A stretch of DNA of 24,000 nt from an uncultured Acidobacteriota bacterium. GTDB lineage: Bacteria; Acidobacteriota; Terriglobia; Acidiferrales; UBA7541. Below the pieces are notes generated by a model. The model was not told where the DNA came from. It worked only from the letters and a program-made list of their open reading frames with translations, and did not search any database. This document shows, one piece after another, positions 9,741-21,106 of this stretch; positions within the stretch are counted from its first letter, which is position 1, and each line of letters opens with the position of its first letter. The DNA is taken from positions 151,506 through 175,505 of the forward strand of contig CAWIPA010000006.1 of the NCBI GenBank assembly GCA_963837855.1, written 5' to 3'. The position numbers and the translations under genes were made by a program.

Positions 9741-12700
9741 TCAAGACGAGCAAGGATGGGCGCCCAGGTTTCTTCCAGGGGGCAGGGGCGATGTAGAGGC
9801 TCGAGCCTTACCAGCGGGAGCGGGCGTCATGATTCGAGAGATTTGCCTGGCGCGAGGGCTGCCGGTGCGGCGAACGTGTTCGCGCAACGCGGCGCGCAGA
9901 CGGATTTCTTCGCCCGGCTCGAGCGCGCCCTCATTTGCCGGGCGAACGAATTCTTCACTGTAGGTCGCAGCGGTGGCGAATTCTTTTTGGATATACGCGA
10001 GGCCGCCGGTCATGCCGCTGGCCACGTTGATTCCGGTTGGGCCGAGGATAATTACCACTCCGGCGGTCATGTATTCGCAACCGTGCTGGCCCACGCCTTC
10101 GACGACCGCCAGCGCCCCGCTGTTGCGCACCGCGAATCGTTCGCCAGCCCGGCCTGCGATGTAAAGCTCGCCAGAGGTAGCGCCGTAGAGAGCGGTGTTC
10201 CCGGCCAGCAGATCGCCGCGCAGAGAGGCATCAGCGCCGGCTTCGATGGCGATCGTTCCGCCGCTTAGGCTTTTCGCGACGTAGTCGTTGGCTTCGCCGT
10301 GCAAGCGGAAAATTAGGCCATCGATCAGGAAGGCGCCGAAGCTTTGGCCGGCGGCGCCGTAGAAATCGAATTGCGTTGGCTCGCTGGCAGAGGCTGCGAA
10401 ATTTTTCCGGCGCAGGATGTGCCCGCTGAGATTTGCGCCGATGCTGCGATCCGAATTTTCGATCGGGAACGAGAGCGGATAACTCGAGTGCAGCTCGTAG
10501 CCCTGGATCAAGGCGGTTTCCAGCGAGCCTTTTGAGTTGGCGAGAATGGTTGCGGGATGCGCGGCTTCCGGGCGCGTTTCGGGCGAGGGCTCCAAGAGTT
10601 GCTCGACGGCGCGCGCGTTTGCCGCCGCGCGTGGGCGCAAACGCTCGACGGCGCCCTGCGCGTCGGCTAGCGAGCGCAGGCCCAACGCGGCCAGACGCTC
10701 GCGGACTTCGCCTGCCACGCCGCGGAAATAATTCATCGCCATTTCCGGATCGCCGGCGAAACGCGCGCGCAGATTTTCATCCTGCGTGGCGATGCCGACC
10801 GGGCAGGTGTTGAGATGACACTGCCGCGCCATGACGCAACCGATTGCGAGCAGCGATGAAGTGCCGAACCCGAATTCGTCGGCGCCGAGTAACGCAGCAA
10901 TTACGACGTCGCGCGCGAATTTGAAGCCGCCGTCCACGCGCAGGCTCACTCGATCGCGAAATCCCATCTGCAGCAGCGTAGTGTGCACTTTGCGCAGGCC
11001 CGCTTCCCACGGCAAGCCGGTATTTTTTATGGAGGTAAGCGGCGACGCCCCGGTGCCGCCATCGAAGCCTGAAATGGTGATCACTTGCGCGCCGGCTTTG
11101 GCCACTCCCGCGGCGATGATGCCGATGCCGGAATTAGAGACCAGCTTCACGCCGATTCTCGCCCGCGGATTTACGGCCCGCAGATCGTGAATGAGCTGCT
11201 CGAGATCTTCGATGCTGTAAATATCGTGATGCGGCGGCGGCGAAATCAGCGACATCCCCGGCACGGCGTGCCGCAGTCGCGCGATGAGCGCCGTAACTTT
11301 CTTCGCGGGAAGCTGGCCGCCCTCGCCAGGCTTCGAGCCTTGCGCCATTTTGATTTCAAGTTCGTCGGCGCGCACCAAATATTCCGTAGTCACCCCGAAG
11401 CGCGCAGAAGCCACTTGCTTCACGCGATTCGCGGCCTCAGGTTCCAGTTCGTAAACGTCAGGATCTTCGCCGCCTTCGCCAGTGTTGCTGCGCGCGCCCA
11501 TTCGATTCATCGCGATGGCGAGAGTGCGATGCGCTTCCGGGCTCAGCGCGCCAAGAGACATCGCTTGCGTGCTGAATCGGCGCAGGATTTCGGATTCGCT
11601 TTCCACCTCGTCGAGTGCGATGGCGTCGCTAGCGGCAAAATCCAGCAGGTCGCGGACGGCCACTGGCTCGCGCGATTCCGCCAGCGCTTCGTAGGCCCGA
11701 TAATTTTCCGGCGTCGGCGCGCCAATGTAGCGATGCATGCTGCGGACCAATGCTGGCGAACTCGAATGGCGCTCGCCGGCGTGGCGAAAACGGTAGAGGC
11801 CGTCGTCGCGCAAATCGTTGAGTGTGGCCGCCGGCGCGTAAGCGGCTTGATGGCGATCCAGGGCATCCTGCAATAAATCTTCGAGCGACTTGCCGCTCAG
11901 AACCGCGCCGGCATCTTCGAAAAAAGCTTCGCGGACTTCTTCGTCGAGCCCGACCAATTCGAAGAGCTGGCTATTGCGATAGCTGGCGATCGTGCAGATT
12001 CCCATGCGGGCCAGCACTTTGCGCAGCCCGGTTTCAACGGCGTCGCGGTAGCGCGCGCGTCCGCCGGCTTTTAGATTTCCGGCGAATTCGAGTGCCAGGT
12101 ACGGCAGCACCGCGCTGGCTCCCGCTGCGATCAGCATAGCCAGGTGATGCGTTTCGATGACTTGTCCGGTTTCGATGAGCAGCGGGATCTCGTAAGCGCC
12201 CGCGCGGACTTGAGATTTCCAGGCGGCGGCGACTCCGAGCAGAGCCGGTAACGCTGCTCTGCTCGGCCCTACTTTTCGATCGCTCAGCAGAATTATTTCC
12301 GGCGGATTCTCGCGCCACTCGCTGACTTCATCGCGAATTTTTTCTAGCGCGATTGCGGCTTCTTCTACTCCCGCGGCCGCTTCGTAGGTGATGTCGATGC
12401 GCTGCACTCGGCCTTGATGCTCAGACTCGAGCGCGGCTAGCTGGCTTTCGTCTAGCAGCGGTGAGGCAATTTTTGTGGATTTGCCGAGATGAACTTCGAG
12501 CGACATAACGTGGCCTTCGCGCAATGGATCGATCGGGGGATTTGTCACTTGGGCGAAGCGCTGCTTGCAATAATCCCAGAGTGGTCGGCGCATGGCGGAC
12601 ATGAATGCTGGAGGGGCGTCGTCGCCCATGCTCCAGACGGATTCTTTGGCTTCCGTCGCTAATGATTCGAAGAGCAGCCGGAATTGATCTTCGGTCCAAC

Positions 12701-14056
12701 CGAGCGCGGCTGCCGCTTTGCGTGGTTCGTTTGTTGGTTTCGATAAAACTGTGACTCGTTTTAGGCGCTTGGTGGCTGGCTCATTTTCTTCGCGATTGGG
12801 AGTCGCCAGCAACTTTGCGATTTCTTTTTCGGTTAGAACTTTCTTGCCTTGCGTGTCGACTACCAGCATTTCGCCGGGGCCCAGTCGTTGGCGGGCCTGC
12901 ACAGCCAGAAGTGGCTGTGCGACTGGGGCGTGATCCACCAGGCCGGCTTCAGAACCTAGAATTATCAGGCCGTCGGCGGTGATGGTGTAACGCAGCGGGC
13001 GCAAGCCGTTGCGATCCAGTTTTGCGCCCACATAGCGGCCGTCGGTGAAGACTAGCGCCGCTGGGCCGTCCCAGGGTTCTTGCGCAATGGATTCTCGGCG
13101 CAGAAAACGCCGCACCGCGGGATCTAGATTCGCGATTGGTTTCCCAGGCTGGCGGGACCATTCGCAACATGGCCGCCGGGATTTTGTACCCTTGGTGCAG
13201 CGACATTTCCAGCGCGTTATCGAAGCTCGCGGAATCGCTGACTCGCTCTTCGAGAGTGTGGAACCAATCAGCGGCTGCCAATTTTTTGCGCGTGGATTCT
13301 TCGCGAGCGCTCGTCCAGCGGCGATTGGCGCTGATGGTGTTGATTTCACCGTTGTGCGCGGCGTGGCGGAAAGGCTGCGCCATCGTCCAGCTGGGCTGCG
13401 TGTTGGTGGAATAGCGCTGATGGAAGATAGCGAAATTGGCGGCAAATTCCGGGTGGCTTAGGTCCCGGTAGAATTGGCGGAATTGCCGCGGGGTGAGCAG
13501 ACCTTTGTAGACGATGGTGCGCGTCGAAAGCGAGCAGAAGTAGGTGCCCGGCTCGCCTTCAAATTCCACTTGCTTGCGGAAGAAATACAGCGCGCGCTCC
13601 AGGTCGGCGACCGGTTGCATCGCGCTGAAAAAACATTGGCGGACGCGTGGTTGCGTAGAAAGCGCGCGGGCGCCCAGCGTGGCAGTTTCGATCGGCACTT
13701 CGCGCCAGCCCAAACATTCCAGATTATTTTTTCGCGCCAGCGATTCGATGGCTTGCCGGGCTTCCGTTTCTTTTTGCGGCGGAAGAAAAACCATGCCCAC
13801 CGCGAAAATTTCCGGCAGAGCGATATTTTCTTCCTGAGCGCGATTGCGAAAGAAATCTTTAGGGATCGGCAGGAGCAGGCCCGCACCGTCGCCGCTCATG
13901 CCGTCGGAATCGACGCCGCCTCGGTGCGAAAGGCGCTCCAGCGCGTTCAAAGCCAGTTGGATAATTTCGCGCGAGGATTCGCCATGTAGCGCGGGCGATG
14001 AAGCCCACCCCGCAGGCATCATGATCCAATCCCGGATTGAGGGCGGCTTCGCGCAT
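9741..14056 (-). pseudogene. gltB: Glutamate synthase large subunit, interrupted by at least two one-base frameshifts (near 13990 and near 13128)
   Basis: Three co-linear pieces. (1) 14056 to about 13990: MREAALNPGLDHDACGVGFIA, the Ntn amidotransferase Cys motif. (2) About 13990 to 13128: LHGESSREIIQLALNALERLSHRGG ... HQRYSTNT ... NGEINT ... VPPAWETNRE. (3) About 13128 to 9741: LDPAVRRFLRRESIAQEPWDGPAA, the central and FMN/Fe-S domains (...LNTCPVGIATQD...), and the C-terminal beta-helix domain (GTIAIEAG...LYGATSGELYIAGRAGERFAVRNSGA). No gltD follows. Confidence 0.9.
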
Positions 14057-14367: not shown

Positions 14368-14394
14368 GGGAGGGTCTAGAATTCAGACCCTCCC
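14368..14394 (-). terminator. Stem-loop 8 nt downstream of the rsr stop (possible terminator)
   Basis: GGGAGGGTCT-agaattc-AGACCCTCCC forms a perfect 10-bp stem. A T-run follows only after about 14 nt on the minus strand, so it is not a textbook intrinsic terminator. Confidence 0.45.
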
Positions 14395-14401
14395 CCTACG
14401 G

Positions 14402-15704
14402 TTATTGCTCCATCGCGCGGATGTAGTGCGTGATTGCTTCGCTCCAGCCGTCGATGTGCGTCCAGGGCCCGTACCCTACGCCGTTTTTGTTGCTGGCGGT
14501 GTTGATCATGTAGCCGCGGGCGCGGGGGCCCGGCACTTGATCGTGGGACTGCTCGTCGGTAATTACGATAATGCGATCGTATTTCTCCTTGATCTTCCCG
14601 AGCGCGCGGCCTAGATAAGTTCCGCCGTGCGGTCTGGCTGGCATCTAGCGCGTCGCGCAGTGCGAAGCCTCGCCGCGGTGGAACCTGGACCAGATCGTTC
14701 GAGAACGAGTACACGATGGCCTTCTCGCAGATCTCGCGCAGCAGAATGGCCAGACCGTAAGCCGCGTCCGTGCGGAGCATTTCCGAACGGCGCGAGAGTG
14801 CGGCGGTCATGCTGCCGGAAACGTCCACGAGTAGAGCCGTGCGGCCCGGCAGCTTCTCCTGCTCCTTGAGCGAGCTGAGCATGGCGCGCTCCAGCGCCTC
14901 TTCCAACTGCGGGGCGTGGCGTGCCGCCGCGATGAAGCGAAACGGCAGGACGCGGCCCGTTTTCATTTGCTCGAGGCCTGTGAGAATTAGCTGCTCGTCC
15001 ACTCCGGCTTGCTGCATGTTGCGCAGGTTGCGGAGCAGCGCGAGTGCGCCGAGCTTGCGCTCGCGGAGCAAACGCTCCCAGGCTTCGTGTTTGTCGGCGC
15101 CAGACGAAAGCGCTACCTCCCAGGTGTCGGGAGTTTCTAGCCTCCCTTCGATGAGGCGCTTCCAGAGCGCGTTCTGCTCGGCGTCACGCGGCTTGGCGTG
15201 GCAGAGGAACAGGACGTCGCGCAGGCGAATGGGCCCGGAGCGATCGTATTTCGCGAGCTGATACTCGTCGAATTTGCGGAAGGCTTGGGCCAGCCCCTTT
15301 TTCACCTGTGCGGAGAGCGGGACTTTGCCTTCCTTCCAATAAATGGCCACAAATTCGGCCAGCTCATCGGCGCGCTGGATGACTTGCGCCAGCGTGCGAG
15401 CGACCGCCTCGCGATGCGTTTTGTGACGCGCCATTTCGCGGACGAGCAGTAACGGAGCGTGACGCAGCTTCATCTGCTCGCGGGCTTCGACGGCCAGCGC
15501 GGCCACGGCCTCGGCTTTCACCTTGGGCACGAGTTCCTGGATGCGCCCGCCGATTTCCACGCCGTCTTCGTAGAACTGATCCTCCCAGAGCAGGCAGGCG
15601 AGGACCGAGCGGCGAAGCTGCAGCTCGACGGAAATATTTCGAGCAGGAGCGCCTTCGTGCGTGCGCGGGCCGTAGGGAATTTTTAGAATGTTGAGTCGCG
15701 CCAT
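14402..15704 (-). pseudogene. rsr: Ro60 orthologue Rsr (TROVE domain plus vWA domain), interrupted by a one-base frameshift near 14625-14645
   Basis: TROVE-type N-terminus (PRTHEGAPA, LLWEDQFYEDG, helical repeats). The vWA MIDAS motif LLVDVSGSM is in the 15704 frame. The continuation RPHGGTYLGRALGKIKEKYDRIIVITDEQSHD...IDGWSE lies in ORF 14402-14644. After the junction the 15704 frame turns into Arg-rich nonsense. AGGAGG (15718-15713) sits 8 nt before ATG 15704. Confidence 0.85.
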
Positions 15705-15735
15705 TTTGGTGCCCTCCTTTTTGCTGTTGTGATAA

Positions 15736-15884
15736 TTGCCGGGGAATAATTGGTGACGGATCCAGCTTGCGCTGGCGGATGCTCTGCCATTGAGCTACGC
15801 GACGCTGCACTGCAGCAGCGCCACGGCAGGATTCGAACCTGCGTCTTTCCGAGCCGAAGTAACCGTGACCTGCGCCACCGGCAA
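15736..15884 (-). ncRNA. Y-RNA-like module 1 (YrlA-like, with a permuted tRNA-like domain)
   Basis: Stem1 UUGCCGG (15884-15878) pairs with CCGGCAA (15742-15736). 5' loop UGGCGCA. Stem2 GGUCACGG (15870-15863) pairs with CCGUCACC (15759-15752) with one C-C mismatch. 3' loop AAUUAUUCC. The apex holds a T arm GCAGG-UUCGAAU-CCUGC (15842-15826), a capped 11-bp acceptor-like helix (15825-15798), a D arm GCUC-AAUGGCA-GAGC (15795-15781) and a hairpin CCAGC-GCAA-GCUGG (15775-15762). Confidence 0.75.
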
Positions 15885-15909
15885 ACTTTTTGATGCTTGT
15901 TGCGATCGA

Positions 15910-15979
15910 TCGCCGGGGAAAAATCGAGAGCGGTGCTTGCTTCGTCACAGGAAGTAACCGCGCTCTTCGCCACCGGCGA
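15910..15979 (-). ncRNA. Y-RNA-like module 2 (minimal)
   Basis: Stem1 UCGCCGG (15979-15973) pairs with CCGGCGA (15916-15910). 5' loop UGGCGAA. Stem2 GAGCGCGG (15965-15958) pairs with CCGCUCUC (15933-15926) with one C-U mismatch. UUACUUC follows stem2. Small apical hairpin CUUC-CUGUGAC-GAAG. 3' loop GAUUUUUCC. Confidence 0.6.
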
Positions 15980-15991
15980 AGCTTTTCAACA

Positions 15992-16315
15992 TCAATCGGG
16001 GTCGTTCAATACGAGTTTGAACTCGTGCTCGTTGTCGGCAGCATCCTCCACGGCCGCGAACCCCGTGGTGCGCTTGCCTCCGTGCGGCACAACGACCCAG
16101 GCGATCTTTTCCATCTCGAGGAGCGTTTGGCGCTGGGCCTCGACGTGGGACGAACATTCGCGCACGTGGAACGGCACGCGATGTTCCGGCCACGTGGCGC
16201 GGCAGATTACCAGCTCTTCGCTTTCGCGGAAGCCGCGTTCGACGTGCGCGTGCGTGCACGTGTAGCAGAGCGACGCGCGCTGCGACTGCGGATCGGTTTT
16301 GAAATTGACGCCCAT
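15992..16315 (-). CDS. Small Cys/His-rich protein of unknown function (107 aa), embedded in the Y-RNA-like array
   Basis: ATG 16315 has AAAGG 8 nt upstream (the ORF track starts at GTG 16324). Composition is balanced and protein-like: MGVNFKTDPQSQRASLCYTCTHAHVERGF...VICRATWPEHRVPFHVRECSSHVEAQ...KIAWVVVPHGGK. The overlapping 287-aa plus-strand ORF is Arg-rich antisense noise. I do not recognise the family. Confidence 0.55.
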   Translation of the reverse strand: MGVNFKTDPQSQRASLCYTCTHAHVERGFRESEELVICRATWPEHRVPFHVRECSSHVEAQRQTLLEMEKIAWVVVPHGGKRTTGFAAVEDAADNEHEFKLVLNDPD

Positions 16316-16392
16316 GCGCGTCACCTTTCTAGAAGCGCGCTCAAATGCGCTTCGGAATGCGCGCTTGCTGTTGCCGCGCGCGGGTTAAATCA

Positions 16393-16556
16393 TTCGCCGG
16401 GGAACAAGCGCCCAGGGTATGTCTCAAGGCGGTATCCAGTGGGTACCTTTTGCTTCGGGGCTACGCCCCCGTCCCCACTGTTCCGTTCCTTGGCAGGGTT
16501 TCCGGCCCTGCGCGACGTTGGCGGAGGAAGTAACCCTCGACTACGCCACCGGCGAA
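16393..16556 (-). ncRNA. Y-RNA-like module 3 (large apical domain)
   Basis: Stem1 UUCGCCGG (16556-16549) pairs with CCGGCGAA (16400-16393). 5' loop UGGCGUA. Stem2 GUCGAGGG (16541-16534) pairs with CCCUGGGC (16417-16410) with one G-G mismatch and one G-U pair. UUACUUC follows stem2. 3' loop GCUUGUUCC. The apex has hairpins GCAGGG-CCGGAAA-CCCUGC, CAGUGGG...CCCACUG (16480-16437) and GGGGC-GUA-GCCCC. Confidence 0.6.
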
Positions 16557-16563
16557 AATTTTG

Positions 16564-16672
16564 GCCAGGGAAAAATCGGCGCGGTGAAAAACGGGGACTC
16601 GAACCCCATCGCTCATCGCTTCCGCGACTTGCGACTTCTCCATGCGAAGTATCCGCGTCGTGCGCCACTGGC
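16564..16672 (-). ncRNA. Y-RNA-like module 4 (with T-arm-like hairpin)
   Basis: Stem1 GCCAG (16672-16668) pairs with CUGGC (16568-16564). 5' loop UGGCGCA. Stem2 CGACGCGG (16660-16653) pairs with CCGCGCCG (16584-16577) with one A-C mismatch. AUACUUC follows stem2. 3' loop AUUUUUCC. The apex has ACUUC-GCAUGGA-GAAGU (16650-16634) and AUGGGG-UUCGAGU-CCCCGU (16609-16591). Confidence 0.6.
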
Positions 16673-16678
16673 ACATTT

Positions 16679-16750
16679 TCCCGGGGGAATAACCGTTCGC
16701 GGTCGTGCATGCTTAACAGGCGATGGAACCGCGAACTACGCCACCCAGGA
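16679..16750 (-). ncRNA. Y-RNA-like module 5 (minimal)
   Basis: Stem1 UCCUGGG (16750-16744) pairs with CCCGGGA (16685-16679), including one U-G pair. 5' loop UGGCGUA. Stem2 GUUCGCGG (16736-16729) pairs perfectly with CCGCGAAC (16702-16695). 3' loop GGUUAUUCC. It ends only 6 nt from module 4. Confidence 0.55.
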
Positions 16751-16909
16751 TGAAAAACTATTCAGGGCAAACGGTTGAGATTGCGGGATTTACTGCCGTG
16801 GGGATCCGGTTAAGGTTCGGCCACAATCCCGGAGCAGCGTCAGAGCCGCTTGCCTGACTTCCGAATTGTGTTTGACTTGGTGCATTCCGAACTTTCTCCA
16901 GAGTTCGGG

Positions 16910-16938
16910 ATAGTAAAGTAGGTTGATGATTTATGCAA
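16910..16938 (-). promoter_or_regulatory. Candidate sigma70-type promoter for the Y-RNA-like array and rsr unit
   Basis: On the minus strand, TTGCAT (16938-16933), a 17-nt spacer, then TACTAT (16915-16910). It lies in the only AT-rich stretch upstream of module 5. This is sequence resemblance only. Confidence 0.3.
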
Positions 16939-17212: not shown

Positions 17213-17569
17213 AGGTGGGAGCCTCCTGCTTTAGCAGGGGGAGGAGCGCTTCAGCGCTCCGAAAACGCTGGCGATTTTTAATGCGCTTGAGCGCCTGGCT
17301 TCCACAGCGCCGTTCGCGGCGCGACCCGTAGTATTCGAGGTGTCGAGGGCACTCCAATCCGTTCAATCTATCGAGTGAATTGTGATCGGTAGTTGTTCGT
17401 TGCGGCGGACACAGCCAGCAGTGGCTGTGCTACTGGAACCGGCATCGAAGCCCGCGCGCAATTACGGCGCATGGTGCAGCCGGCGTCCAGCATGCTGGAC
17501 GATGCGTATTTGCGTTGTGTGGACTATTGCGCGGGCTTATGATGCGCCGCTTGGATGGGAGGATTGACT

Positions 17570-19315
17570 ATGCGCGCTGTGGTTCGGGGTTGGGCTTGGC
17601 GGGTGGCGATTTATTTTGCGGCGCTGACTGCGATTGCGATTTTTTCTTCCGGGGTTGCTTGGGGTCGCGGGCAGACATTTGAGATTTCGTTTCCGGCTGC
17701 GGCGCACGCTGCGCCGATTACTGGGCGCGTGTTCGTGGCCATCACGCGGCACGCCGATTCCGAGCCGCGTTTGCAGATTGCCGGGTGGCAGCGGTGCACC
17801 CCGCTTTTTGGCGTGGACGTCGAGCAGCTTCAGCCTGGGGATGCGGCGCGGATTGATGGCGCGACGCTTGGGTATCCCTTGCATAGTTTGAAGGATTTGC
17901 CTGCGGGAGATTATTACGTGCAGGCGATTGTAAATGTTTATACGGAATTTCACCGCAAGGGCGTCCCGGTGATTTGGGCGCATAACGATCAATGGGAAGG
18001 GCAGCGCTTCAATCGTTCGCCGGGAAATTTAATCAGCGAGGTGCAGTTGGTGCATTTGGATCCGGCCGCTGGCTACGCGATCAAGCTTAGCGCGGGGAAA
18101 GTAATCCCCGCCGTTGAGGTGCCTGCGGATACGGAATGGGTGAAGCACATCAAGATTCAGAGCAAATTGCTTTCTGATTTTTGGGGAACGCCGATTTATC
18201 TAGGAGCGGTGGTTTTGCTGCCGAAAGGCTATGACAGTCATCCGGAAGTGAAATATCCGGCGGTTTATGTCCAGGGGCATTTTAGTTTGAATCCGCCGTT
18301 TGCTTTTTCCACAGAGAATGTTGCGGAGACCGACGCGCAGCGGATTGCGCGGGAATCACGCGGGACGGAATCCGCCTACGAGTTTTATAAATCTTGGAAT
18401 TCTGAGAATTTTCCGCGAATGATTGCGGTCAGTTTTCAGCATCCCACTCCATTTTTTGATGATTCTTATGCGGTGAATTCCGTGAATGACGGGCCGTATG
18501 GCGACGCGATCATGACGGAATTGATTCCTTATATCGAATCGCATTTTCGAACCATCGCGCAGCCTTACGCGCGTTTGCTGACTGGCGGATCCACCGGCGG
18601 TTGGGAGGCTATGGCTTTGCAGGTTTTTCACGCAGATTTTTTCGGAGGGGCGTGGGTTTTGTTTCCCGATCCGCTCGATTGGCACCGCTATGGGCTTACC
18701 GATATTTATGACGACGAGAATGCATTTTTGGTGCAGAAGGAACACCGCGAGCTCGATTCGAATTACGGAGATCACGAGTGGCAGGTGCCGGAGCGATCGT
18801 TTGAGCGCTCACCGGACGGTCAATCGGAAAACACCGTGCGGCAAGTCAGCCAGCTCGAGGACGTGCTCGGCAGCCACGGCCGATCGGCGCAGCAGTTGGA
18901 AGTTTTCGAGGCGGTGTTTAGTCCGATGGGAGCGGACGGTTACCCGAAGCCGCTTTGGGATAAGCAGACGGGCGTGATCGATCACGAGGTGGCGAATTAT
19001 TGGCGGGCGCACGATTACGACTTGCGGGATTACATGCAGCGGAATTGGACTTCGCTGGGGCCGAAGCTGGCGGACAAATTATATTTTGCTGTGGGCGATA
19101 TGGATCATGGCTATTTGAATTTGTCGGTTTATTTGATGCAGGATTTTTTGAAAGCTTCGAAGAATCCGCATGTGGACGCAACTTTTGTCTATGGGCGGCC
19201 GATGAAGGGGCATGGATGGCACGCCATGACACAGGCGGAGCAGATTCGAGTAATGGCGAAATTTGTTTCCGCGCATGCGCCCGCCGGCGCGAAAACCGCG
19301 GATTGGAGTTATTGA
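17570..19315 (+). CDS. Secreted alpha/beta-hydrolase, putative esterase (esterase D / enterochelin-esterase-like), paralogue 1
   Basis: GGGAGG (17557-17562), 7 nt, then ATG 17570. Signal-peptide-like MRAVVRGWAWRVAIYFAALTAIAIFSSGVAWG. The C-terminal half has the nucleophile elbow LLTGGSTGGWEAM (GxSxG) and LLPKGYD...YPAVYVQGH, as in the putative-esterase family. Confidence 0.75.
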   Translation: MRAVVRGWAWRVAIYFAALTAIAIFSSGVAWGRGQTFEISFPAAAHAAPITGRVFVAITRHADSEPRLQIAGWQRCTPLFGVDVEQLQPGDAARIDGATLGYPLHSLKDLPAGDYYVQAIVNVYTEFHRKGVPVIWAHNDQWEGQRFNRSPGNLISEVQLVHLDPAAGYAIKLSAGKVIPAVEVPADTEWVKHIKIQSKLLSDFWGTPIYLGAVVLLPKGYDSHPEVKYPAVYVQGHFSLNPPFAFSTENVAETDAQRIARESRGTESAYEFYKSWNSENFPRMIAVSFQHPTPFFDDSYAVNSVNDGPYGDAIMTELIPYIESHFRTIAQPYARLLTGGSTGGWEAMALQVFHADFFGGAWVLFPDPLDWHRYGLTDIYDDENAFLVQKEHRELDSNYGDHEWQVPERSFERSPDGQSENTVRQVSQLEDVLGSHGRSAQQLEVFEAVFSPMGADGYPKPLWDKQTGVIDHEVANYWRAHDYDLRDYMQRNWTSLGPKLADKLYFAVGDMDHGYLNLSVYLMQDFLKASKNPHVDATFVYGRPMKGHGWHAMTQAEQIRVMAKFVSAHAPAGAKTADWSY

Positions 19316-19333: not shown

Positions 19334-21106
19334 GTGGGATTTGATTCAGTAGCGGTTGGGGATCGAGTTCGAGCGCGCCTTGTGTCACCGGCAATTGTTT
19401 TCGCCGCGATGGTACTGTGCGTTTTCTTTTTTGCTTCGAGCGCAGGCGCTCAGAGTGCCGGGCCTCGATTTGAGATTTCGTTTCCGGCTGCAGCTCATGC
19501 CGAGGCGATTACCGGGCGTGCTTTTGTGATGATCACGCGGGATGCCTCGCGCGAGCCGCGGCTGCAAGTCGGGAATTGGGCCGATAGCGCGCCATTTTTC
19601 GGCGTTGATGTGGATTCGCTGAAGGCCGGCGAGGCGGCGGTAATTGACGCGGGGACGCTCGGCTATCCGTTGCGCAGTCTGAAGGATTTGCCGGCGGGCG
19701 ATTATTACGTGCAGGGGTTGATGCAGATTTATACCGACTTTCACCGGTCGGATGGCCATGTGCTCTGGATGCACATGGATCAATGGGAGGGCCAGCACTT
19801 CACTCGCTCGCCGGGAAATTTAATCAGCGAGGTCCAGCGAATTCATCTGGATCCCGCCGCTGGCTACTCCGTGAAATTGAGTTTGGCGAAAGTGATTCCG
19901 CCGATTGTGGTGCCAGCAGATACGGCCTGGGTCAAGCGCGTCAAGATTCAAAGCAAGTTGATGACCGCATTTTGGGGCCGGCCAATTTATTTTGGGGCTA
20001 CCGTTTTGCTGCCGAAGGGCTATGACGAGCATCCGAACGTCTCTTATCCGGTGGTTTATTTGCAGGGCCATTTTAGTTTGGCCGCGCCCTTTGGATTTCA
20101 GACCGAGCCTTCCACCGAAACCGATTTTCAGCGGATCGCCCGGGAAAATCGCGGGACCGAGACTGGCTATGAGTTTTACCAGGCTTGGAACTCGGAAAAT
20201 TTCCCGCGGATGATCGTGGTTACGTTCCAGCATCCCACTCCTTACTTCGACGATTCTTATGCAATCAATTCGGCGAATGACGGCCCGGCCGGCGACGCCG
20301 TCATGACGGAATTGATTCCTTACGTGGAGGAGCATTTCCGGATTATTCGCGAGCCTTGGGCGCGTTTGCTCACTGGCGGATCCACCGGCGGATGGGAATC
20401 ACTTTCTTTGATGGTCCATCATCCCGATTTTTTTGGCGGGACGTGGACTTTTTTCCCGGACCAGATCGATTTCCGGCGCTATGGGCTTCTGAATATTTAT
20501 GAAGACGAGAACGCGTTTTTTGTGACCAAGGAGCACACCGAGCAGAATTTGGTTTATGCGAATCACGAATGGTTCCAGCCGGAGCGGCCTTTCGAGCGCG
20601 CCCCGGATGGGCAGCCGGAGCGGTCGTTCCGGGATGTCAGCCAGTTGGAATTGGTGCTTGCGAGTCACGGCCGATCCGGGCAGCAGGTAGGAATTTTTGA
20701 CGCGACGTTCGGGCCGGTGGGAGCGGACGGCTATCCTCGCGGACTTTGGGACAAGACCACCGGGAAAATTGATCGCGAGGTCGCGCTTTATTATCGCGAT
20801 CATGGATATGACTTGAGCAATTATGTCGCAACACATTGGTCTGAGATTGGGAATCAGTTGAATGGCAAGCTCTACTTGGGCGTCGGCGAGATGGATCACG
20901 GGTCATTTAATTTGGCGGTCGGTCTGCTGCAGGATTTCTTGAAGACGTCGGAGAATCCTCATTACGAGGGGACATTTGTGTTCGGGCGCCCGTTGAAGGG
21001 GCATGGCTGGCATCCCATGACGCAAGCAGAATTGATGCGCATGATGGGGAAGTATCTGGGAGAACATTCGCCGAGTGGGGCTTTGGCGGCGTCGCAAGTT
21101 CCGTGA
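19334..21106 (+). CDS. Secreted alpha/beta-hydrolase, putative esterase, paralogue 2
   Basis: GGGAGG (19321-19326), 7 nt, then GTG 19334, 18 nt after the stop of paralogue 1. Signal peptide ...VFFFASSAGAQS. Collinear with paralogue 1 over the full length (roughly two thirds identical by eye) and carries the same LLTGGSTGGWES motif. Confidence 0.75.
   Translation: MGFDSVAVGDRVRARLVSPAIVFAAMVLCVFFFASSAGAQSAGPRFEISFPAAAHAEAITGRAFVMITRDASREPRLQVGNWADSAPFFGVDVDSLKAGEAAVIDAGTLGYPLRSLKDLPAGDYYVQGLMQIYTDFHRSDGHVLWMHMDQWEGQHFTRSPGNLISEVQRIHLDPAAGYSVKLSLAKVIPPIVVPADTAWVKRVKIQSKLMTAFWGRPIYFGATVLLPKGYDEHPNVSYPVVYLQGHFSLAAPFGFQTEPSTETDFQRIARENRGTETGYEFYQAWNSENFPRMIVVTFQHPTPYFDDSYAINSANDGPAGDAVMTELIPYVEEHFRIIREPWARLLTGGSTGGWESLSLMVHHPDFFGGTWTFFPDQIDFRRYGLLNIYEDENAFFVTKEHTEQNLVYANHEWFQPERPFERAPDGQPERSFRDVSQLELVLASHGRSGQQVGIFDATFGPVGADGYPRGLWDKTTGKIDREVALYYRDHGYDLSNYVATHWSEIGNQLNGKLYLGVGEMDHGSFNLAVGLLQDFLKTSENPHYEGTFVFGRPLKGHGWHPMTQAELMRMMGKYLGEHSPSGALAASQVP

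What the first reader, a model, noticed from the sequence alone, without database searches (positions are those of the whole stretch)
15736..16750. Five tandem Y-RNA-like modules on one covarying scaffold, directly upstream of a Ro60/Rsr gene
Five minus-strand segments share the same architecture: 16750-16679, 16672-16564, 16556-16393, 15979-15910 and 15884-15736. Each reads stem1 (5-8 bp), a 7-nt 5' loop UGGCGNA, an 8-bp stem2 ending in GG, then UUACUUC, AUACUUC or UUCCAUC. A variable apical module follows, then stem2' starting with CC, an 8-9-nt 3' loop NNUUNUUCC, and stem1'. The helices differ in sequence but stay complementary. Stem2 is GGUCACGG:CCGUCACC, GAGCGCGG:CCGCUCUC, GUCGAGGG:CCCUGGGC, CGACGCGG:CCGCGCCG and GUUCGCGG:CCGCGAAC. 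Stem1 is UUGCCGG:CCGGCAA, UCGCCGG:CCGGCGA, UUCGCCGG:CCGGCGAA, GCCAG:CUGGC and UCCUGGG:CCCGGGA. Four of the five stem2 helices keep a single internal mismatch at position 3 or 4. A terminal stem formed by the 5' and 3' ends, plus a conserved asymmetric internal loop, is how Y RNAs present the Ro60-binding site, and bacterial Y RNAs are known to sit next to rsr. Described bacterial loci carry one to a few Y RNAs. Five paralogues with different apical domains on one strand suggests a cassette of alternative Rsr adaptor RNAs. That last step is inference.
Basis: partly seen in the sequence, partly recalled or inferred. Interest (0 to 1): 0.88.

Follow-up and report, generated by a model that had tools for sequence, protein, structure and literature searches.

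The report
Five-gene bacterial Y RNA array beside rsr
Five small structured RNA genes of the known Y RNA kind sit in a row just upstream of the Ro60/Rsr gene of a soil acidobacterium; such arrays of 3-7 turn out to be common in this lineage and in some phages, so this extends a known system rather than founding a new one.

Summary
It is far beyond chance: the 5' motif occurs 5 times against 0.01 expected.

The five minus-strand modules share one scaffold: stem1, UGGCGNA, stem2 ending in GG, a UUACUUC-type box, a variable apical domain, stem2', NNUUNUUCC, stem1'. In 88-150 homologous modules from relatives, about 91% of cells pair against about 70% in shuffles, and 14-15 of the 15 pairs show compensatory changes.

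The gene 31 nt downstream is a TROVE/Ro60 (Rsr) protein. Module 5 carries a YrlA-type tRNA-like domain, with an Rfam YrlA E-value of 7e-6 that is below the gathering score. Modules 1 and 4 are YrlB-like hairpins. Module 2 has a T arm only. Module 3 has a conserved 109-nt domain that matches nothing known. The best reading is an operon of Y RNA paralogues that load one Rsr ring with different effector modules.

This is not exceptional. Among 80 Terriglobia rsr loci, 27 have 3 modules, 18 have 4 and 9 have 5. A close relative has 6, and Caulobacter phages CcrColossus and CcrPW have 7.

Expression and Rsr binding remain untested.

The parts
16910..16938 (-). Putative sigma-70-type promoter, TTGCAT-17 nt-TACTAT
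   Evidence: Read from the sequence. Hexamers of the form TTGCNT/TAYNNT at a fixed 17-nt spacing are conserved in L001, L003, L005 and L010 (alignment A5). The consensus scanner did not call it. Inferred, not shown.
16751..16908 (-). Conserved leader of about 155 nt between the putative promoter and M1; contains GGGAUUGUGGCCGAAC
   Evidence: Its sequence blocks are conserved in L001, L003, L004, L005, L006 and L010 only. Its fold is not unusually stable (z -1.14). There is no Rfam match. Its role is unknown.
16679..16750 (-). M1: short Y RNA (72 nt), YrlB-like hairpin with apical loop CUGUUAA
   Evidence: My covariance model R1 scores it at 58.2 bits. The fold has z -3.0. Orthologues in most Terriglobia loci carry compensatory changes.
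16564..16672 (-). M2: Y RNA (109 nt) with AUACUUC box and a T-arm-like hairpin GGGGUUCGAGUCCCC
   Evidence: R1 scores it at 42.7 bits. Orthologous modules of about 107-113 nt, with GGCCAG stem1 in most and GUGCCAG/GAGCCAG in the nearest relatives, occur in many loci.
16393..16556 (-). M3: Y RNA (164 nt) with a 109-nt structured apical domain of unknown type
   Evidence: The scaffold is parsed. The apical structure is conserved in L003, L004, L010 and L064, with 11 compensated pairs in the whole-module consensus (3 of them in stem2, the rest in the apical domain). It is also present in L206-L209. No Rfam match at E<=10.
15992..16315 (-). Conserved 107-aa Cys-rich ORF embedded in the array
   Evidence: Translation is. 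C17, C20 and C38 are invariant and C54 nearly so. A profile HMM built from alignment A4 finds it in 46 of 80 Terriglobia rsr loci, always on the rsr strand. The family has 959 representatives at E<=1e-3. It has no Pfam, NCBIfam or PHROG family.
15910..15979 (-). M4: short Y RNA (70 nt) with exact GGCGAAG motif and apical loop CUGUGAC
   Evidence: R1 scores it at 63.8 bits. The same module is found in the nearest relatives L206 and L209.
15736..15884 (-). M5: YrlA-type Y RNA (149 nt) with a tRNA-like domain (T arm, acceptor-like stem, D arm)
   Evidence: Rfam YrlA RF02553 matches 15752-15867 at 36.4 bits, E 7.1e-6, below the gathering score of 69. The fold has z -2.9. Orthologues next to rsr occur in many loci.
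14376..15704 (-). rsr: Ro60/TROVE protein gene (442 aa as the ORF is read)
   Evidence: Pfam TROVE E 1.4e-19 and weak vWA_Ro60. PHROG 850 'RNA-binding protein' E 1.9e-44. Homologues of 80-89% identity are named TROVE or 60 kDa SS-A/Ro by their sources.
14368..14394 (-). 10-bp GC-rich hairpin overlapping the rsr stop codon; possible 3' end of the operon
   Evidence: Read from the sequence. No U run follows directly, and the terminator scan did not call it. Inferred.

Best explanation
The region is an operon of five paralogous Y RNA genes, plus one small protein gene, followed by rsr. All are on the minus strand.

Each RNA closes its 5' and 3' ends into stem1. It then presents an asymmetric internal loop (5' UGGCGNA opposite 3' NNUUNUUCC, with GG:CC probably pairing), then stem2, which often carries one mismatch.

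By analogy with characterised Y RNAs, this constant module is the docking site for the Rsr ring. Its GGCGNA(G) corresponds to the published 5'-strand motif GNCGAAN0-1G.

The variable apical module is the effector end:
- a tRNA-like domain in M5 (YrlA type);
- a T-arm-containing domain in M2;
- small hairpins with a CUGUNNN loop in M1 and M4 (YrlB type);
- a 109-nt domain of unknown type in M3.

The likely working model is as follows. One transcript starts about 155 nt upstream of M1. It is cut in the short A/U-rich spacers (6-25 nt) into separate RNAs. These compete for Rsr, either gating it or tethering it to different partners, as the RNA Yrn1 tethers Rsr to PNPase in Deinococcus.

Shown here: the sequence architecture, covariation, linkage to rsr, and conservation of each module class.

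Inferred: transcription as one unit, processing, Rsr binding, and different partners for different modules.
For: - **Architecture and chance.**: 5 hits against 0.01 expected.
- **Covariation (alignment A1).** On 88 scaffolds from 57 loci plus the window, 91.4% of cells pair against 69.6% in shuffles (0 of 500 shuffles reach it). All 15 pairs have changes on both sides. When the 3' partners are slid by 1-3 columns as a control, only 30-53% of cells pair.
- **Covariation (alignment A7).** On 150 hits of my covariance model R1 the figures are about the same: 91.7% paired, with compensatory changes at 14 of 15 pairs.
- **De novo fold.** RNAalifold on 44 short modules recovers stem1, GG:CC and stem2 without being told.
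- **Decoy test.** 83 of 104 5' motifs have a matching 3' half, against 47 of 2080 when the stems are permuted.
- **Linkage to rsr.** 208 R1 hits in 80 Terriglobia rsr loci all lie on the rsr strand. Every one of the 207 hits in the 80 loci starts upstream of rsr (the other hits are in the window itself).
- **Phage loci.** In viral contigs the same scaffold sits next to TROVE genes in 29 loci.
- **The neighbouring gene.** It is TROVE/Rsr.
- **M5.** It matches Rfam YrlA across the T arm, acceptor-like stem and D arm.
- **Literature.** Y RNAs lie within 4 kb of rsr on the same strand, carry GNCGAAN0-1G on the 5' strand, number at least two per species, and are made from a polycistronic precursor in D. 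radiodurans (PMC4201824). They are modular, with a Ro60-binding stem plus an effector module (bioRxiv 10.1101/312249).
- **Orthologues.** Each module class is kept in relatives, e.g. M1-M5 in L209 and six modules in L206.
Against: - No module reaches any Rfam gathering score. The YrlA match of M5 scores 36.4 bits against 69.
- Only M4 has the exact CGAA motif. The others read CGUA or CGCA.
- M1 and M4 (70-72 nt) and M3 and M5 (149-164 nt) fall outside the 80-130 nt quoted for characterised Y RNAs.
- The minimum-free-energy fold of M3 does not form stem2.
- No promoter or terminator was called by the consensus scans.
- There is no evidence of transcription, processing or Rsr binding.
- The A1 set was selected for pairing and A7 was fitted to the model, so the 'percent paired' figures lean towards the structure. 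The compensatory counts and the decoy test are less affected.
Confidence: 0.85

Rival explanations
1. The modules are not released as separate RNAs. They act in cis as repeated Rsr-binding sites in a long rsr leader, letting Rsr feed back on the stability or translation of its own mRNA.
For: - All elements share one strand with short spacers, and no internal promoters or terminators were called.
- M5 ends 31 nt before the rsr start codon.
- In relatives, protein genes (the small ORF, rtcB, an AAA ATPase) are interleaved with the modules, so a long mRNA must exist.
Against: - Characterised bacterial Y RNAs in the same genomic arrangement are processed out of polycistronic precursors (PMC4201824).
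- Each module closes its own 5' and 3' ends into a stem, the hallmark of a free RNA.
- The distinct apical domains, kept class by class across species, are hard to explain for mere binding sites.
- In many loci the modules lie 1-3 kb from rsr.
Confidence: 0.08
2. Only some modules are working Y RNAs (for example the YrlA-like M5). The rest are decaying tandem duplicates without function.
For: - Module number changes between close relatives: 5 in the window and L209, 6 in L206. It ranges from 0 to 5 across the 80 loci.
- M4 was seen only in the nearest relatives.
- M3 and M4 have the same stem1, UCGCCGG.
Against: - Classes M1, M2, M3 and M5 are each kept at the same relative position in species whose Rsr is only 73-89% identical, and their stems carry compensatory changes.
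- The invariant loop bases (UGGCG.A and the terminal CC, plus the nearly invariant U and C before it) are retained in all five.
- Decaying copies would lose pairing, yet 91% of cells pair.
Confidence: 0.05
3. The repeats are a tRNA-derived or mobile repeat family (tRNA pseudogenes, or a REP/MITE-like element) that lies near rsr by accident.
For: - M2 and M5 contain tRNA-like T and D arms.
- Annotators have called tRNA genes over such modules in phages: tRNA-Gln in CcrColossus and tRNA-Thr next to TROVE in a Xanthomonas phage.
Against: - ARAGORN finds no tRNA in the window, and Rfam tRNA does not reach its gathering score.
- M1, M3 and M4 have no tRNA-like arms.
- Among about 1 Mb of flanking DNA, the R1 hits at E<=1e-3 occur only on the rsr strand and start upstream of rsr.
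- In viral contigs, 5' motif hits without a TROVE gene mostly lack the 3' half and look like chance.
Confidence: 0.02

Closest known systems
Salmonella Typhimurium rsr-yrlBA-rtcBA operon (YrlA and YrlB; Rfam RF02553)
   Same: - Y RNAs lie on the rsr strand next to rsr.
- One RNA has a tRNA-like T arm, acceptor-like stem and D arm (M5).
[quoted passage not shown]
- RtcB is linked: it is present on the rsr strand in 18 of 80 related loci, for example between the last module and rsr in L003.
- The 5'-strand motif is of the GNCGAA type.
   Different: - There are five RNAs, not two.
- They lie upstream of rsr.
- No rtcB or rtcA is in this window.
- The 3' strand of the Rsr-binding loop (UUNUUCC) is also conserved, whereas the literature says only the 5' strand is conserved among bacteria.
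- The Rfam YrlA score is about half the gathering score.
- Extra effector domains (M2, M3) have no counterpart.
Deinococcus radiodurans Yrn1/Yrn2 with small RNAs a, b and d upstream of rsr
   Same: - Several small RNAs are encoded in a row upstream of rsr.
- Yrn2, tRNA-Asp and Yrn1 are made as one polycistronic precursor.
- The RNAs are modular, with a Rsr-binding stem plus an effector end that tethers PNPase.
   Different: - Only two of the five Deinococcus RNAs have the Ro-binding stem, while here all five share it.
- The Deinococcus binding helix resembles the metazoan one.
- No tRNA gene is interleaved here.
Caulobacter phages CcrColossus and CcrPW (TROVE gene with YrlA-like RNA)
   Same: - The scaffold is identical (UGGCGNA, stem2, NUACUUC box, GNUUGUUCC).
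- Modules are tandem, directly upstream of a TROVE gene.
- tRNA-like domains are mixed with other apical domains.
- Rfam YrlA scores are a similar 30-42 bits.
   Different: - There are seven modules and no interleaved protein gene.
- The setting is a phage genome.
- The arrays are unannotated in the records apart from a tRNA-Gln call.
- I found no paper describing them as arrays.
Thermus phage phiLo Yrl1/Yrl2 with phiRo60 (PMC12135203)
   Same: - Two Y RNA-like genes lie upstream of a Ro60 gene.
- A 5'-3' stem flanks an internal bulge with a CGAA motif.
- Binding to Ro60 and a ternary complex with host PNPase were shown experimentally.
   Different: - There are two RNAs, not five.
- I did not compare the sequences.
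- Binding is shown there and untested here.
Vertebrate Y RNAs (Y1, Y3, Y4, Y5)
   Same: - Two to four paralogues per species share a Ro60-binding stem formed by the two RNA ends.
- They differ in the loop that recruits other proteins.
   Different: - They are separate RNA polymerase III genes, not an operon.
- They have no tRNA-like domain.
- The binding helix has a different sequence.

Membership tests
Bacterial Y RNA (criteria of Chen et al. 2014, PMC4201824) | Encoded within about 4 kb of rsr on the same strand | tested here: met
   All five lie 31-1046 nt upstream of the TROVE ORF 14376-15704 on the minus strand. The same holds for 207 model hits in the 80 related loci.
Bacterial Y RNA (criteria of Chen et al. 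2014, PMC4201824) | Long stem formed by pairing of the 5' and 3' ends | tested here: met
   Stem1 and stem2 are recovered by folding. They are supported by compensatory changes at all 15 pairs and at 14 of 15 pairs.
Bacterial Y RNA (criteria of Chen et al. 2014, PMC4201824) | 5'-strand Ro60/Rsr-binding motif GNCGAAN0-1G (CGAA in an internal bulge) | tested here: met
   M4 reads GGCGAAG exactly. M1 and M3 read GGCGUAG, M5 reads GGCGCAG and M2 reads GGCGCAC. G, G, C, G and A are invariant in 88 homologues and the fifth position varies freely. So the clade motif is GGCGNA, one position looser than published.
Bacterial Y RNA (criteria of Chen et al. 2014, PMC4201824) | Discrete stable small RNA that binds Rsr and depends on it for accumulation | not testable with these tools
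   No expression or binding data are available here.
YrlA (Rfam RF02553) | Score at or above the curated gathering threshold (69 bits) | tested here: not met
   There are no gathering-level hits in the window. M5 scores 36.4 bits, E 7.1e-6, and the other modules do not match. The modules of phage CcrColossus, the phage in which a Y RNA-like RNA was reported, also score only 30-42 bits.
YrlA (Rfam RF02553) | tRNA-like effector domain: T arm, acceptor-like stem and D arm in that order | tested here: met
   M5 aligns across all three elements: GCAGGUUCGAAUCCUGC, a long stem, then GUAGCUCAAUGGCAGAGC. M2 has only the T arm. M1, M3 and M4 have none.
[quoted passage not shown] | Rsr-binding stem continued into a simple hairpin with a small loop | tested here: inconclusive
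   M1 and M4 fold as long hairpins with 7-nt loops CUGUUAA and CUGUGAC. The CUGU loop start recurs in most short homologues. No curated model or reference sequence was available, so the resemblance rests on shape only.
tRNA | Cloverleaf recognised by ARAGORN or Rfam tRNA at the gathering score | tested here: not met
   ARAGORN finds 0 genes. Rfam tRNA matches only the T arm of M5, at 16.1 bits against 29.
Ro60/Rsr protein | TROVE (HEAT-repeat ring) domain followed by a vWA domain | tested here: met
   TROVE scores 71.1 bits against a cut-off of 23. vWA_Ro60 scores 21.4 bits, below its cut-off of 27.7. The precomputed Pfam annotation of the 100%-identical protein P0001 lists both domains.
Ro60/Rsr protein | NCBIfam equivalog 'RNA-binding protein Rsr' (NF041674, cut-off 900 bits) | tested here: not met
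   It scores 24.6 bits. The protein is a shorter form of about 440 aa. It matches PHROG 850 at E 1.9e-44 and is 58.7% identical to TROVE proteins of Xanthomonas phages.

The most novel reading that the evidence does not exclude
The array is a programmable adaptor set. One Rsr ring is loaded by any of five to seven Y RNAs, and each apical domain docks a different partner. Candidates are PNPase, tRNA-handling enzymes, RtcB, the BCS1-like AAA ATPase and the small Cys-rich protein that are interleaved with the modules in relatives. The 109-nt domain of M3 would then be a new class of structured effector RNA. The rapid gain and loss of modules (5 against 6 in near relatives, 7 in jumbo phages) would reflect host-phage conflict over RNA damage and repair.
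Probability: 0.3. Interest if true: 0.7.

Novelty: new variant of a known kind. Interest (0 to 1): 0.5.

Why it matters
What Y RNA effector modules do, and why cells keep several Y RNAs, is still largely open. It has been worked out only for Yrn1 and PNPase in Deinococcus.

This lineage offers a natural panel for the question. Hundreds of Y RNAs share one well-defined Rsr-binding scaffold in which both strands are conserved. They carry at least five distinct, separately conserved apical domains, and they are linked to RtcB, an AAA ATPase and a small Cys-rich, possibly zinc-binding, protein.

The same scaffold occurs in cultivable Caulobacter phages, which have seven tandem copies. That makes the question testable in a model host.

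On the practical side, the current Rfam YrlA model misses all of these RNAs. Gene callers also lay spurious ORFs or tRNA genes over them.

Tried and rejected
- **Rfam at gathering score, whole window:** nothing. The permissive mode gave only the sub-threshold YrlA hit on M5 plus chance-level hits.
- **ARAGORN:** no tRNA or tmRNA.
- **Promoter and terminator scans:** no promoter; the terminator-like hits were uninformative.
- **Covariance model R1 with filters off:** it could not span long apical inserts and truncated M3 and M5. With default filters it spanned up to about 165 nt but still missed M3 and M5. I recovered those with a regex and pairing parser.
- **Coding explanation for the array:** rejected. 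The overlapping ORFs 15890-16753(+), 16390-16710(-), 16419-16778(+) and 15364-15948(-) have no Pfam family, and the substitution pattern is compensatory in RNA stems.
- **Small ORF:**
  - No Pfam, NCBIfam or PHROG family.
  - AlphaFold with 5 sequences failed, at pLDDT 35. With 103 sequences it reached pLDDT 71.
  - Foldseek against the PDB gave no match, and a profile search of PDB sequences gave none.
  - Distant family members are not next to rsr or Y modules, so the link to rsr is lineage-specific.
- **Leader upstream of M1:** conserved in sequence, but its fold is not significant (z -1.14) and RNAalifold gave little covariation.
- **Literature:**
  - The supplements of Chen 2014 are not held.
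  - The 2019 and 2020 Wolin reviews and Burroughs & Aravind 2016 are not held.
  - I therefore cannot exclude that multi-copy arrays are mentioned there.
  - Searches for arrays of Y RNAs found none.
- **Xanthomonas phage 10KY502B (L204):** my parser found no scaffold there despite a TROVE protein 58.7% identical.
Full report
**What is in the window**

Read on the minus strand, 16750-15736 contains five segments built to one plan. The plan is:
- a 5-8-bp stem1;
- the 7-nt loop UGGCGNA;
- an 8-bp stem2 ending in GG;
- a 7-nt box (UUACUUC in M3, M4 and M5; AUACUUC in M2; UUCCAUC in M1);
- an apical insert of 17-109 nt;
- stem2' starting with CC;
- an 8-9-nt loop NNUUNUUCC;
- stem1'.

The pattern TGGCGNA-N6-GG-NTNCNTC occurs five times in 24 kb, all here and all on one strand. 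Shuffles give 0.01 expected.

Single-sequence folding recovers stem1 and stem2 for M1, M2, M4 and M5, with z-scores from -2.0 to -3.0. The minimum-free-energy fold of M3 keeps only stem1.

**The neighbouring gene**

The ORF 14376-15704(-) starts 31 nt after M5. It has a TROVE domain (71 bits against a cut-off of 23) and a weak Ro60 vWA match. Its close homologues, at 80-89% identity, are named TROVE or 60 kDa SS-A/Ro proteins and come from Acidobacteriota (Candidatus Acidiferrales, Terriglobales).

It is a short form of about 440 aa. It fails the NCBIfam Rsr equivalog but matches PHROG 850, and it is 58.7% identical to TROVE proteins of Xanthomonas phages. The flanking genes are ordinary chromosomal genes (glutamate synthase, esterases, lactate permease), not a prophage.

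**Comparative evidence for the scaffold**

I fetched 80 rsr loci from Terriglobia genomes. The strict 5' motif occurs 99 times in them. All 99 are on the rsr strand and upstream of rsr; none is on the other strand.

A parser that looks for a complementary 3' half found complete modules in most loci. With the stems permuted as decoys, only 47 of 2080 trials passed, against 83 of 104 real motifs.

On an alignment of 88 distinct scaffolds (A1):
- 91.4% of cells form standard pairs, against 69.6% in shuffles;
- all 15 pairs have changes on both sides;
- 310 cells are double changes, against 114 expected;
- sliding the 3' partners by 1-3 columns as a control drops pairing to 30-53%.

I built a covariance model (R1) from A1. 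It gave 208 hits at E<=1e-3 in the 80 loci and the window. All are on the rsr strand, and every hit in the 80 loci starts upstream of rsr. The 150 best give about the same covariation figures: 91.7% paired, with compensatory changes at 14 of 15 pairs. RNAalifold on 44 short modules finds stem1, GG:CC and stem2 de novo, with 13 of 15 pairs compensated.

Caveat: A1 was selected for pairing and A7 was fitted to the model, so the 'percent paired' figures lean towards the structure. The number of pair types, the slid controls, the decoy test and the de novo fold do not depend on that selection.

**Identity of the modules**

The literature defines bacterial Y RNAs by several features:
- they are encoded within about 4 kb of rsr on the same strand;
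- they have a long stem formed by the two RNA ends;
- they carry a 5'-strand motif GNCGAAN0-1G;
- in at least one RNA per species there is a tRNA-like effector domain;

Here GGCGAAG (M4) fits the motif exactly. The others differ at one position, which varies freely in the clade.

The five modules sort as follows.
- **M5:** aligns to Rfam YrlA over the T arm, acceptor-like stem and D arm (36.4 bits, E 7e-6). This is below the gathering score of 69.
- **M2:** has a T arm only.
- **M1 and M4:** long hairpins whose 7-nt loops begin CUGU, a feature shared by most short homologues.
- **M3:** carries a 109-nt domain with two hairpin systems. It is conserved in L003, L004, L010 and L064, with 11 compensated pairs in the whole-module consensus, 3 of them in stem2. 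It has no Rfam match.

ARAGORN finds no tRNA.

**How unusual is five?**

It is not unusual in this lineage. Combining model hits and parser hits gives this distribution for the 80 loci plus the window itself:

| Modules per locus | Loci |
|---|---|
| 0 | 6 (five have a cut or very short upstream flank) |
| 1 | 7 |
| 2 | 14 |
| 3 | 27 |
| 4 | 18 |
| 5 | 9 (including the window) |

The nearest relatives found through the embedded ORF confirm this. L209 has the same five modules in the same order, with compensatory differences. L206 has six, including a second tRNA-like module.

Outside the phylum, I scanned viral contigs for the 5' motif. The result was many chance hits without a 3' half, plus 29 loci with complete modules of the same scaffold beside a TROVE gene on the same strand.

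Caulobacter phages CcrPW and CcrColossus carry seven tandem modules directly upstream of their TROVE gene. Three of these score 30-42 bits on Rfam YrlA. In the CcrColossus record one module is annotated as tRNA-Gln and the rest are unannotated; the CcrPW record has no annotation over the array beyond a small hypothetical ORF on the opposite strand. A 2025 paper states that Y RNA-like RNAs were reported earlier in CcrColossus. I found no paper that describes arrays of five or more. Key reviews and the 2014 supplements were not available to me.

**Operon context**

A conserved 107-aa ORF (15992-16315, minus strand) lies between M3 and M4.
- It has invariant Cys17, Cys20 and Cys38 and a nearly invariant Cys54.
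- It belongs to a family with 959 representatives.
- It occurs in 46 of 80 Terriglobia rsr loci, always on the rsr strand, and in none of the viral loci.
- It has no known family or fold match.
- Distant members are not linked to rsr.

In relatives, rtcB (18 of 80 loci) and a BCS1-like AAA ATPase (34 of 80) sit on the rsr strand. They are interleaved with the modules in most loci and lie downstream of rsr in a few. Neither is in this window. The RtcB link echoes the Salmonella rsr-yrlBA-rtcBA operon.

Upstream of M1, hexamers TTGCAT and TACTAT at 17-nt spacing and a leader of about 155 nt are conserved in the closest clade. The spacers between modules are short and A/U-rich. A 10-bp hairpin overlaps the rsr stop codon. 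Together these suggest one transcript that is processed into separate RNAs, as shown for Yrn2, tRNA-Asp and Yrn1 in Deinococcus. This step is inference.

**Verdict**

Mechanistically, the constant stem1-loop-stem2 module most likely docks Rsr, and the five apical domains provide alternative effector ends.

The finding is a variant of a known kind: multi-copy Y RNA arrays on a scaffold conserved on both strands, with new effector domains and an embedded small protein gene. These arrays are widespread in Terriglobia and present in some phages, and current Rfam models do not detect them.

It is of moderate interest. It is not a new kind of system, but it is a useful natural panel for asking what Y RNA effector modules do.

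Noticed in passing
window 15992-16315 (-): A conserved 107-aa Cys-rich ORF (CxxC...C...C) lies inside the Y RNA array, between M3 and M4. It has no Pfam, NCBIfam or PHROG family and no PDB fold match. Its family has 959 representatives. It occurs in 46 of 80 Terriglobia rsr loci, always on the rsr strand. Distant members are not linked to rsr.
   Followed up: yes
window 16751-16938 (-): A putative promoter (TTGCAT-17-TACTAT) and a leader of about 155 nt with highly conserved blocks (e.g. GGGAUUGUGGCCGAAC, which contains a GNCGAA-like string) lie upstream of M1. They are conserved only in the closest clade (L001, L003-L006, L010). The fold is not significant and the function is unknown.
   Followed up: partly
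window 9741-14022 (-): The glutamate synthase large subunit is split into two overlapping reading frames: a 357-aa piece with the first three quarters of GATase_2, and a 1234-aa piece with the rest. This is a frameshift, either a pseudogene or an assembly error.
   Followed up: no
L003 4477-5808; L013 4457-5842; 80 Terriglobia loci: In related rsr loci an RtcB RNA ligase (18 of 80) and a BCS1-like AAA ATPase (34 of 80) sit on the rsr strand, interleaved with the Y RNA modules in most loci. Neither is present in this window. The ATPase link to Rsr and Y RNAs appears undescribed.
   Followed up: partly
L205 (JX100810.1, CcrColossus) 1329-2432; L203 (MH588545.1, CcrPW) 1833-2933: Seven tandem Y RNA modules with the same scaffold lie directly upstream of the TROVE gene of two Caulobacter jumbo phages. 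In the CcrColossus record one is annotated as tRNA-Gln and the others are unannotated; the CcrPW record has no annotation over the array beyond a small hypothetical ORF on the opposite strand.
   Followed up: yes
L206 1424-1577: The nearest metagenomic relative (embedded ORF 92% identical) has a sixth module, a second tRNA-like Y RNA, between the ORF and M4. The gene caller placed a 66-aa ORF over it.
   Followed up: partly
L204 (OQ622092.1) 2292-2359: Xanthomonas phage 10KY502B has the phage TROVE protein most similar to the window's Rsr (58.7% identity). It has an annotated tRNA-Thr about 100 nt upstream of that gene, but no module with this scaffold. This could be a divergent YrlA-type RNA or a real tRNA.
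   Followed up: no
L003 3202-3247 (+); L033 4276-4322 (-): The Rfam Acido-Lenti-1 RNA motif (62 and 42 bits, above its gathering score of 37) lies in rsr neighbourhoods. In L003 it is a few hundred nt upstream of the Y RNA array; in L033 it is inside the array, on the opposite strand. It is absent at gathering score from the window.
   Followed up: no
window 14368-14394 (-): A perfect 10-bp GC-rich hairpin (GGGAGGGUCU/AGACCCUCCC) overlaps the rsr stop codon. It may be a 3'-end or processing signal. No U run follows directly.
   Followed up: no
window 17555-19315 (+) and 19334-21106 (+): Two adjacent paralogous genes of about 590 aa, each with a putative esterase domain, are transcribed divergently from the Y RNA operon.
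   Followed up: no
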